This document shows, one piece after another, positions 8,926 to 11,160 of a DNA stretch of 38,039 nt (its first letter is position 1; each line of letters opens with the position of its first letter). Made by a program: the position numbers and the translations under genes. The stretch lies in assembly GCF_000760515.2 (NCBI RefSeq), contig NW_013546367.1, forward strand, positions 1 to 38,039. The letters are read 5' to 3'. Under the pieces are notes generated by a model. The model was not told the origin of the DNA. It saw only the letters and a program-made list of their open reading frames with translations, and made no database searches. The DNA is from Mitosporidium daphniae. Lineage: Eukaryota.

Positions 8926-10310
8926 CTATGGCATCAGAATCCCCATCCGTCCTGAAGACGAAATTGATACGGAAGGCGCACCGGAAGGCAAAGCCACGGA
9001 GGTGCTTTTTCGGCCATAGGACAGCTTTTCTGTTCGAAGCTTCACAACGGACGGTACCCACATAAAACGTTTGTTCTGAAACTTCTCAATGTCCGCTGCA
9101 ACCCGGCGCTCACGGGTGCCTTCATAAACATGGACAACTTGCTCCTCTTCAGAAACAAGAGAGCCACAGGCCTCCCCAGAGTATGTGGCTGTAGGATCGA
9201 CAGATCGGATTTCTCTAAGATATATCAGAAATGGCGTATTATCATCAGGGCCCAATGAATAAAACTCGTCCCTGGAGGCCACCTTTAGAGCCGCATCACG
9301 GGGCCATCTATTTTTATAAACAAAGCCGCTAACCTATTCTGGAAGATGTGAAAGTTGGAAGCGGCAGTACGATACGGTGCGTGGGACTCGTCCAAAAGAA
9401 TATACCGTCTTATCTCTGCAAATTAGAAAAATTGTTGCGCAAGGTCAAAGCCAGAGCAAGGCAAAAGTAAAAGCAATCGTACCGTGATCAGACCAGGGAA
9501 CGAATGTTTCCAAGTTTCGCCACTTGTCTTTCAGGTCTACGGAAGACCTATCCTTGAATTTGAATGCCGGGTCCGAAAGGATAGCCTTCCACTTTCCTTT
9601 TCCATATTTCCTGACACCCTCCTTCAAATATCTAAATAAAAGAATTGGTATTAGATGGTGATAAATAATTGGCAATCACAGGGAAAGGCCGGCAACTTAC
9701 TCCGTTTCTTCTTCATCCCAAAAACACCGATGCTTCCAAAGGTGCTCCCCAGACGCTCTTTTAGCCCTGCGAGTTTCTGAATTTGCCAATGGTGGTGTGG
9801 CAATGGCAGAGCTCTTCGCAGACTTGGATGTCCGTTTCCTCAATGGGGCAAGTTCTGAAGAAAGAGATTCAAACTCGTCATTTGAAGCCTCTTTTTCGGC
9901 CTCTTCATCCTCCATCATGCTAGAAAGCTGATGAAATGGGGTCGATGTTCCGGCCGTAGAGTTCAACAGATGCGAGTGCGAATTATGGATAGAAACGATG
10001 GTGTTGTGGCTTTGAGGATGGTCTAAATTGGACGCGTGATTATCGCCCAACATTTCATTAGCCTCCTTCCTTGGTAGACGCCCCTTTCGCCGAGCGGTAA
10101 GATCGGGGATCGCGCTGGACGGGAAGTGTTCTTGCGCGGGACTTGAATCAGAATGTGTTTCTCGTACCATCTAAGTGCGTAAGATTCGCATAAGAAATGG
10201 CCCGTGTGATAACAATGAATATGGAAAATGATTATTGGACTTACCTGTGATAATAGGGTTGGTGAATGACGGTGTAAACCTAAACAAAAAGTAGGGTTAA
10301 TTTGTGCCAT
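8926..10310 (-). CDS. Telobox/TRF-type Myb domain fused to a C-terminal MC1-like chromosomal protein domain (about 360-382 aa, 5 exons)
   Basis: Introns 10171-10244, 9632-9700, 9416-9482 and 9308-9333. Myb: [41 protein letters not shown]1-like: [53 protein letters not shown]. The start is either ATG 10310 or ATG 10170. Confidence 0.85.
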
Positions 10311-10370
10311 GGGGCCAATGTAAATGATGTGCTTGTTGGGGGGGGGGTAATTTTAATTTTACTTAATTTT

Positions 10371-11160
10371 ATGGTGAGGCTCTCTTTGGATTTGATTGAG
10401 CACTCTCCGGTATTCACAAATGCCATTGGCGATCGAGAGCTTGACTTGCGGGGTATCCTTGTGTGCTGCTTACAGATTAGGTTGTAAAATTGTGGCAATT
10501 GAAAATCTGTCTTCGACCCGTGATCTCCACGATACCATTGATCTTTCGGACAACGAAATACGGGAGTTGGACAATGTTCCTCCTCTCTTCAGGTTGAAGC
10601 ACCTGTATCTCTCAAACAACAAAATATCAAAAATAGACCCTGCCCTTGCGCAACGGGTTCCGTTTCTGCACACGCTTATTCTAAGCGGAAATAATATTTC
10701 GGAGCTTACAGACCTGGTCCCTCTGGCCGGATGGTCTGATTTGAGGCATAAAAACACCTATTACAAACCCCAATTAGAGGGGCTTTCGTTGATCGATAAT
10801 CCAGTCTGCAAAAAACCCAACTACAGACATTTTCTGATTTCGCTGATCCCAAGCTTAAGGGTTTTGGATTATTGTAAGGTTACAGACAAGGTACGTTACG
10901 CCAACTTTTTCCAAGGAACGCAAATATGTGCAAGAATTGTTGCAATCTGGCGTTCTTTCCGCTTCAGATTCCTCCACCGCAGTTCTTGTCAAAAAACAAG
11001 ACGAATATTCGCAGCAGAAGAAGGAGCGGATGAAGGTATTTATTTGTGCGTCGGATTTATATTCTAGGCTGCCATTGCACAGGCAACGTCGCTCAGTGAG
11101 ATAAGGCATTTGGAACGCGCTTTCGCATCCGGCTACATTCCAGATGACCTCGCTAGCTGA
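10371..11160 (+). CDS. LEA1: U2 snRNP A' leucine-rich repeat protein
   Basis: MVRLSLDLIE..DRELDLRG|CKIVAIENL..DTIDLSDNEI..DNPVCKKPNYR..LRVLDY..KVTDK|ER, and C-terminal AAIAQATSLSEIRHLERAFASG after three short introns. Confidence 0.9.

What the first reader, a model, noticed from the sequence alone, without database searches (positions are those of the whole stretch)
8926..10310. Hidden fusion of a telomere-repeat-binding Myb (telobox) domain with an archaeal/viral MC1 DNA-bending domain
Seen: four GT-AG introns join three apparently unrelated ORFs plus an 82-nt exon (9334-9415) absent from the ORF track. The Myb domain has the TRF1/TRF2/Tbf1/plant-TRB telobox recognition helix ([10 protein letters not shown]). 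It is followed directly by [65 protein letters not shown]. Knowledge: this aligns block by block with methanogen non-histone chromosomal protein MC1 as I recall it (RNFVLRD..HGVFTGKQPRQAALKAANR..IIRLRERGTKKVHVFKAWKE..KPFVKKERIEKL). MC1 is a DNA-bending/bridging protein of Euryarchaeota with homologs in giant viruses. No TRFH domain is evident and the N-terminus is low-complexity. Inference: a horizontally acquired, intron-domesticated MC1 (an intron interrupts it) is targeted to TTAGGG-type sites by the Myb domain, giving a non-canonical telomere or chromatin architectural factor. I recall MC1-like domains being annotated in some microsporidia, so novelty itself needs checking.
Basis: partly seen in the sequence, partly recalled or inferred. 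Interest (0 to 1): 0.88.

Follow-up and report, generated by a model that had tools for sequence, protein, structure and literature searches.

The report
Ancient telomere-Myb/archaeal MC1 fusion family
This intron-split gene of a compact-genome eukaryote joins a telomere-type DNA-reading domain to a relative of the archaeal DNA-bending protein MC1, a pairing also found in single-celled relatives of animals and in rhizarian protists, so it is likely an old, overlooked eukaryotic protein family predicted to bind and bend telomere-type DNA.

Summary
The fusion is real. Four GT-AG introns give a 382-aa frame. Introns 2-4 rank first of 148 open splice combinations against a family profile, and a spliced homolog is gap-free across those junctions. 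No RNA was available, and exon 1 is unverified. The Myb is of the TRF1/TRF2 type with all four base-reading residues kept. The second domain is an MC1 homolog (HHalign 99% against archaeal MC1; 11 of 64 relatives pass Pfam's MC1 cut-off), although fold searches of the PDB did not return MC1. The gene is not a one-off: 67 clusters at 50% identity match, 48 with the telobox just upstream at nearly fixed spacing. Named members are Capsaspora, Pigoraptor, Sphaerothecum, Chromosphaera, Bigelowiella and Bonamia. The eukaryotic domains form one clade that resembles archaeal more than sampled giant-virus MC1, but AU tests exclude neither a viral sister group nor a split origin. A recent, lineage-specific transfer is therefore unlikely; this is an old family. 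DNA binding, bending and telomere location are untested, and the domain is much less basic than archaeal MC1. Ten paper searches found no description.

The parts
10245..10310 (-). Exon 1 (22 codons); coding status unverified, may be 5' untranslated with the start at 10170
   Evidence: in frame, strong donor site; no homolog support
10171..10244 (-). Intron 1, 74 nt, GT-AG, unverified
9701..10170 (-). Exon 2: low-complexity N-terminal region with basic patches, then the Myb N-terminal arm and start of helix 1
   Evidence: no significant Pfam hit
9632..9700 (-). Intron 2, 69 nt, GT-AG, inside the Myb domain
9483..9631 (-). Exon 3: rest of the telobox Myb with the recognition helix, and the short linker
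   Evidence: Pfam PF00249 26.5 bits; homolog's best PDB hits are TRF1 and TRF2
9416..9482 (-). Intron 3, 67 nt, GT-AG, at the Myb-MC1 boundary
9334..9415 (-). Exon 4 (82 nt): first two strands of the MC1-like domain
9308..9333 (-). Intron 4, 26 nt, GT-AG, just before the MC1 helix
   Evidence: candidate introns of 23-27 nt in neighbouring genes
8926..9307 (-). Exon 5: MC1 helix, strands 3-5, variable insertion at 9142-9207, 30-aa tail at 8929-9018, stop
9508..9735 (-). Telobox Myb domain (about residues 168-220, split by intron 2)
9019..9413 (-). MC1-like domain (about residues 230-352, split by intron 4)

Best explanation
The gene, with splicing predicted from homologs, encodes a telobox Myb joined by a short conserved linker to an MC1-related domain, and the pair likely works as one unit that recognises TTAGGG-type double-stranded DNA and is predicted to bend it, most likely at chromosome ends. 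Shown: the two homologies, their fixed spacing, the family and its spread. Inferred: (1) the Myb reads the repeat through R170, K213, D214 and R217, the equivalents of TRF1 R380, K421, D422 and R425; (2) the linker holds the MC1 domain on the neighbouring DNA; (3) the MC1 domain grips the concave side, R259 (MC1 Arg25) neutralises crowded phosphates and F332 (MC1 Trp74) wedges into the minor groove; (4) this second contact gives the avidity that TRF proteins get from TRFH dimers, while the low charge makes the domain depend on the Myb for targeting, unlike the genome-wide archaeal MC1. The fusion arose once, before Holozoa and the lineage of this window split, and possibly before these and Rhizaria split.
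For: Myb: top PDB sequence hits are TRF1/TRF2; a model of relative P0013 fits TRF1 at Z 10.2, rmsd 1.1 A over 52 residues; base-contact residues are taken from the table in PMC2377444 and all four are kept here. MC1: HHalign of 90 eukaryotic domains against 33 archaeal ones gives 99.07%, E 1.5e-18; a eukaryote-only profile hits PDB 1t23 at E 0.001, the only row among the 60 shown whose match lies in the MC1 half; the model has MC1's strand-strand-helix-strand-strand-strand order; named rows among the best viral fold hits are MC1-domain proteins of giant viruses; the ESM Atlas top three hits are MC1 clusters. MC1 Arg4, Lys22, Arg25, His56, Lys86 and an aromatic at Trp74 are kept in 77, 75, 70, 68, 74 and 64 of 77 rows (R or K counted together where basic). 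The two-domain model has pLDDT 92.5, pTM 0.78 and 94-96 over the linker. Spacing is 46-47 in 39 of 48.
Against: No binding, bending or localisation data. MC1 Gln26 is D or E in 77 of 77 rows, Ile89 is E in 57, Lys54 is mostly V or I, Pro72 is kept in 18. Net charge of the domain is 0 here (+5 without the insertion), median +4 in 74 relatives, against median +14 in 33 archaeal proteins. The window's own exon stays under Pfam's MC1 cut-off. The Trp74-to-Phe mapping lies in a poorly aligned loop. Rows were chosen by motifs that include D214, R217 and part of the MC1 helix, so those counts are partly built in. Telobox proteins such as Teb1 act mainly in transcription (PMC7952879). The telomere repeat of this organism is unknown.
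Confidence: 0.55

Rival explanations
1. The MC1-like domain has lost DNA bending and serves as a protein-contact or dimerisation module, or as a structural extension of the Myb, as the histone-like domain of plant TRB proteins partly does.
For: Acidic replacements at Gln26 and Ile89 and low net charge; no TRFH domain to dimerise; the TRB histone-like domain mediates complexes and POT1b binding (PMC4282523).
Against: Basic residues that contact DNA in MC1 (Arg4, Lys22, Arg25, Lys86) and His56 are among the best conserved positions.
Confidence: 0.25
2. The protein binds and shapes DNA as proposed but mainly at internal telobox-like promoter sites, acting as a general regulatory factor like Teb1 or Tbf1 rather than at telomeres.
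For: Fungal telobox proteins switch between transcription and telomere roles (PMC7952879; PMC7857110). An earlier AI note reports five paralogs in one microsporidian (unchecked lead).
Against: The Myb is closest to TRF1/TRF2 and keeps all four base contacts; the Bigelowiella member also carries a BRCT domain, a domain found in telomere proteins.
Confidence: 0.2
3. Origin rival: the MC1 domain came from a giant virus, or entered Rhizaria and opisthokonts separately or by transfer between eukaryotes, rather than being inherited from one deep ancestor.
For: AU tests do not reject eukaryotes plus giant viruses as one clade (p 0.094; p 0.374) or a split origin (p 0.124); only 99 columns; chlorovirus, pandoravirus, bacterial and Asgard sequences were not knowingly sampled; best fold hits in the viral library are giant-virus proteins; only two rhizarian members were seen.
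Against: Eukaryotic domains are one clade at 100/98 and 99/98 and the four holozoans group at 99/98 and 100/97; profile similarity is 99% to archaea against 25% to 51 sampled giant-virus-type domains, and the gap persists without the motif used for selection (9-13 against 1-3 bits); both rhizarian proteins have the same Myb-then-MC1 order and the acidic residue at position 26.
Confidence: 0.3
4. The Myb and MC1 exons are not joined in this organism; the splice model is an artefact.
For: No transcript was seen; the 26-nt intron is short and has a weak donor; the database holds no spliced copy of this window's protein.
Against: Best of 148 splice combinations, gap-free alignment to P0004, exact family spacing; similar short candidate introns in neighbouring genes.
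Confidence: 0.04

Closest known systems
Archaeal chromosomal protein MC1 (Pfam PF05854; PDB 1t23, 2khl, 2nbj)
   Same: Homologous over the whole domain; same order of five strands and one helix; Arg4, Lys22, Arg25, His56, Lys86 and an aromatic at 74 kept.
   Different: Fused to a Myb rather than free; insertions after the helix and after strand 3; Gln23 to Trp, Gln26 to Asp, Lys54 to Val, Trp74 to Phe; far less basic.
MC1-like proteins of giant viruses (Mimivirus gp275; bioRxiv 10.1101/2024.02.22.580433)
   Same: Same predicted fold.
   Different: More distant in sequence than archaeal MC1 in my sample; no Myb-fused form found in IMG/VR by motif scans.
TRF1/TRF2, Tbf1 and Tay1/Teb1 telobox proteins
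   Same: Telobox Myb with the four TRF1 base contacts.
   Different: No TRFH hit; a single Myb followed by MC1; Tay1 has two Mybs and the review passages read hold no mention of MC1.
Plant TRB/SMH proteins (telobox Myb + histone-like domain + coiled coil; PMC4282523)
   Same: Same design: a telobox reader joined to a small chromatin-architectural domain. Closest functional analogue.
   Different: The partner is MC1, unrelated to linker histone; no coiled coil seen; different lineages.

Membership tests
MC1 (PF05854) | Sequence match over Pfam cut-off (23 bits) | tested here: inconclusive
   Window exon 5 alone 19.1 bits; the spliced protein could not be scanned; 11 of 64 relatives pass, 34 of 64 hit at E<=0.01 with only the best five families shown
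MC1 (PF05854) | Profile homology over the whole domain | tested here: met
   HHalign 99.07%, 87 columns; 1t23 residues 12-92 at E 0.001; Bonamia 47.5 bits
MC1 (PF05854) | Two strands, helix, three strands fold | tested here: inconclusive
   Order of elements matches in two models of relatives and viral MC1 models match; the solved MC1 was not listed by PDB fold searches
MC1 (PF05854) | Bending residues Arg25 and Lys86 | tested here: met
   R259 and K345
MC1 (PF05854) | Pro72/Trp74 wedge and Gln23, Gln26, Ile89 contacts | tested here: not met
   E330, F332, W257, D260, T348; only the aromatic character of position 74 is kept
MC1 (PF05854) | Small, free-standing, strongly basic protein | tested here: not met
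   Fused; net charge 0 against median +14
MC1 (PF05854) | Binds and sharply bends DNA | not testable with these tools
   needs biochemistry
Telobox Myb | Recognition helix motif and TRF1 base contacts R380, K421, D422, R425 | tested here: met
   R170, K213, D214, R217
Telobox Myb | Binds telomeric repeats | not testable with these tools
   needs EMSA or SELEX
TRF/Taz1/Tbf1 (TRFH + Myb) | TRFH dimerisation domain | tested here: not met
   No Pfam TRFH hit in exon 2, in P0004 or among the families shown for 64 relatives; a very diverged copy is not excluded
Plant TRB/SMH | Histone-like domain after the Myb | tested here: not met
   No such Pfam hit; the domain is MC1-like

The most novel reading that the evidence does not exclude
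The last common ancestor of eukaryotes, or nearly so, carried an archaeal nucleoid protein, MC1, welded to a telobox Myb as a telomere DNA-shaping factor. It survives in unicellular Holozoa, early fungal relatives and Rhizaria and was lost in animals, most fungi and plants, which is why model organisms missed it. It would be a third ancient design of duplex telomere protein beside TRFH-Myb and Myb-H1, and a non-histone archaeal chromatin protein retained in the nucleus.
Probability: 0.3. Interest if true: 0.92.

Novelty: new variant of a known kind. Interest (0 to 1): 0.78.

Why it matters
In the papers I could search, MC1 is described from archaea and giant viruses only; the Mimivirus preprint reports finding no algal hits. 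A conserved nuclear family with MC1 across Holozoa, Rhizaria and many uncultured lineages extends the domain to cellular eukaryotes and offers a candidate duplex telomere protein for unicellular groups where, as the shelterin evolution paper says, the origins are unclear. It is directly testable: Capsaspora CAOG_05071 is a member in a culturable species.

Tried and rejected
No whole genome is held for the window, so paralogs, a separate TRFH protein and the telomere repeat could not be sought. No RNA holder was listed; four contig sets show only unspliced DNA. Two metagenome scans found no relative: 295 pattern matches failed tblastn and 4 of 4 motif hits were chance. Viral scans with eukaryotic profiles found no fused form; the one hit was a Myb without MC1; these are motif scans of low sensitivity. 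Foldseek and VIA searches of the PDB did not list MC1 for the single-domain model (best Z 4.2) or the two-domain model, where Myb hits filled the list; the second-look VIA search never ran because the machine was busy. Single-sequence and five-sequence searches of PDB sequences missed MC1. The Atlas gave no usable hit for the two-domain protein. Hsp70 against the PDB did not place the organism. Asgard and myxobacterial MC1 could not be reached. Low-Z matches to ADP-ribosyltransferase folds and a weak DUF3990 hit were taken as noise. P0067 was rejected as a false hit. Paper searches without a description of this family; the library lacks most subscription papers and no supplements were read.

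Full report
Setting. The window is gene-dense eukaryotic DNA of 44.9% GC with ordinary nuclear genes. The gene lies between a convergent patatin lipase gene and a divergent leucine-rich-repeat gene. Compact genes, short introns and GC within the 34-47% range given for Rozellomycota and Microsporidia (PMC5701793, passages) suggest that group; this is inference, and an Hsp70 search did not place it.

Gene model. Splicing by coordinates gives four GT-AG introns (74, 69, 67, 26 nt) and a 382-aa frame. Of 148 open-frame combinations of nearby GT and AG sites for introns 2-4, the proposed one scores best against a profile that omits this protein and its closest relative. That relative, P0004 (NCBI CAM6032185.1, labelled Sphagnum compactum; I infer a co-sequenced microbe), is gap-free across the three junctions. 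Frame-restoring introns of 23-27 nt are possible in two neighbouring genes, so the 26-nt intron is not odd here. Exon 1 has no outside support. No transcript data could be had.

The Myb. Best PDB matches of P0004 are TRF1 and TRF2. The TRF1 residues that read bases, R380, K421, D422 and R425 (table passage in PMC2377444), map to R170, K213, D214 and R217; all four are kept in 51 of 62 relatives that cover them, though two were part of the selection motif.

The MC1 domain. Exon 5 alone gives a sub-threshold Pfam hit. I gathered 115 prokaryotic loci by motif (105 gave a full frame, 34 kept after thinning, one more dropped as frameshifted) and 135 viral loci (71 frames hit, 57 kept). The archaeal profile scores the spliced domain 28.4 bits, shuffles at most 6.3. 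With 90 eukaryotic domains HHalign gives 99.07% against archaea, 98.2% against 6 archaeal-virus-type and 24.8% against 51 giant-virus-type domains; the viral labels are my inference from contig names and similarity. A eukaryote-only profile finds the solved MC1 at E 0.001. Models of two natural relatives have the MC1 order of elements. The viral fold library returns MC1-like proteins first, with E 0.006 at best, and the Atlas agrees, with a recognition score just under its own guide value. The four PDB fold searches did not list MC1, so the fold match to the solved structure is not shown. Using the residue roles in PMC6776556 (passages) and the 1t23 numbering, Arg4, Lys22, Arg25, His56 and Lys86 are kept, Trp74 is Phe, and Gln23, Gln26, Lys54, Pro72 and Ile89 are changed. 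The domain is much less basic than archaeal MC1.

The family. A profile of the MC1 part alone found 67 clusters among 1.84 billion representatives. Forty-eight have a telobox motif upstream, at 46 residues in 31 and 47 in 8. Of the other 19, 17 begin inside or just before the MC1 domain and look like fragments, one has a variant Myb and one is a false hit. Of 64 scanned, 43 show a Pfam Myb and 11 pass the MC1 cut-off. I looked up sources for 20 of those 64; 5 named an organism: Capsaspora owczarzaki, Sphaerothecum destruens, Pigoraptor chileana, Chromosphaera perkinsii and Bigelowiella natans. A further search added Bonamia ostreae, whose record is already marked with both Pfam families. No animal, dikaryan or plant name appeared apart from the moss label, but most hits are unnamed, so absence is not shown. 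Whether the unnamed frames are intron-free genes or transcripts was not checked. A model of P0013 with 77 sequences is confident across the linker, which suggests a rigid two-domain unit.

Origin. In trees of 50 rows and 99 columns (7 long viral rows listed for removal, eukaryotes thinned to 16 of 38) the eukaryotic domains form one clade (100/98; 99/98 under a mixture model), with the two rhizarians outside the rest and the four holozoans together. They sit among archaeal sequences near DPANN-type ones, without firm support. AU tests reject neither a giant-virus sister group nor a split origin. My prokaryotic and viral sets were chosen by motifs and lack Asgard, myxobacterial and probably several viral groups. 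So the family is old and archaeal-like, and its donor is open.

Mechanism. Most likely the Myb selects TTAGGG-type DNA and the MC1 domain makes a second contact and bends it, in the way plant TRB proteins pair a telobox with a histone-like domain (PMC4282523, passages). The rivals are a protein-contact role for the MC1 part and action at internal sites (PMC7952879 and PMC7857110, passages). None is tested.

Literature. Ten searches (listings only) found no description of a eukaryotic MC1 domain. I read passages and section 5 of the Mimivirus preprint, passages of PMC8653790, which has no mention of MC1, of bioRxiv 2025.11.24.690127 and one figure legend of bioRxiv 2026.07.02.735847; PMC13053709 and PMC8867601 gave nothing relevant. 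Supplements and subscription papers were not seen and may hold domain lists with this pairing. Two earlier AI notes of this scan report the same architecture in other genomes; they are leads, not support.

Verdict. Observation confirmed, interpretation partly supported. A real and apparently undescribed family built from two known domains; new variant of a known kind; interest 0.78.

Noticed in passing
window 10310-10373: The divergent LRR gene (U2A'-like by recall; Pfam LRR_9) appears to start at 10371, only 60 bp from the proposed start at 10310; a run of C lies directly before that start and a longer C run between the two, which has one extra base in 3 of 4 assemblies.
   Followed up: partly
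window 9308-9339: Intron 4 ends with the same five bases as the exon before it, a short direct repeat of the kind left by intron gain.
   Followed up: no
window 12437, 14818, 15601, 16701: Candidate introns of 27, 23, 26 and 24 nt in the M3 peptidase and USP7-like genes; this genome seems to mix very short and about 70-nt introns.
   Followed up: partly
P0069 and P0105: Both rhizarian members have two Mybs before the MC1 domain; the Bigelowiella protein adds BRCT. The Bonamia domain is the most archaeal-like seen (47.5 bits).
   Followed up: partly
L255:3001-3144: A giant-virus MAG contig encodes a telobox Myb followed by basic repeats and no MC1.
   Followed up: partly
L124, L137, L247 and Aenigmatarchaeota loci such as L028: These viral and archaeal MC1 proteins carry an insertion after strand 3, at the place of the eukaryotic insertion; Aenigmatarchaeota proteins score highest against the eukaryotic profile.
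   Followed up: partly
L063 (G002): A Bacteroidales MAG holds a near-canonical MC1 gene (144.6 bits); transfer or mis-binning not checked.
   Followed up: no
P0013 residues 8-15: The model shows an extra strand before the Myb; a similar motif was found in 15 of 36 relatives and is not evident in the window's protein.
   Followed up: partly
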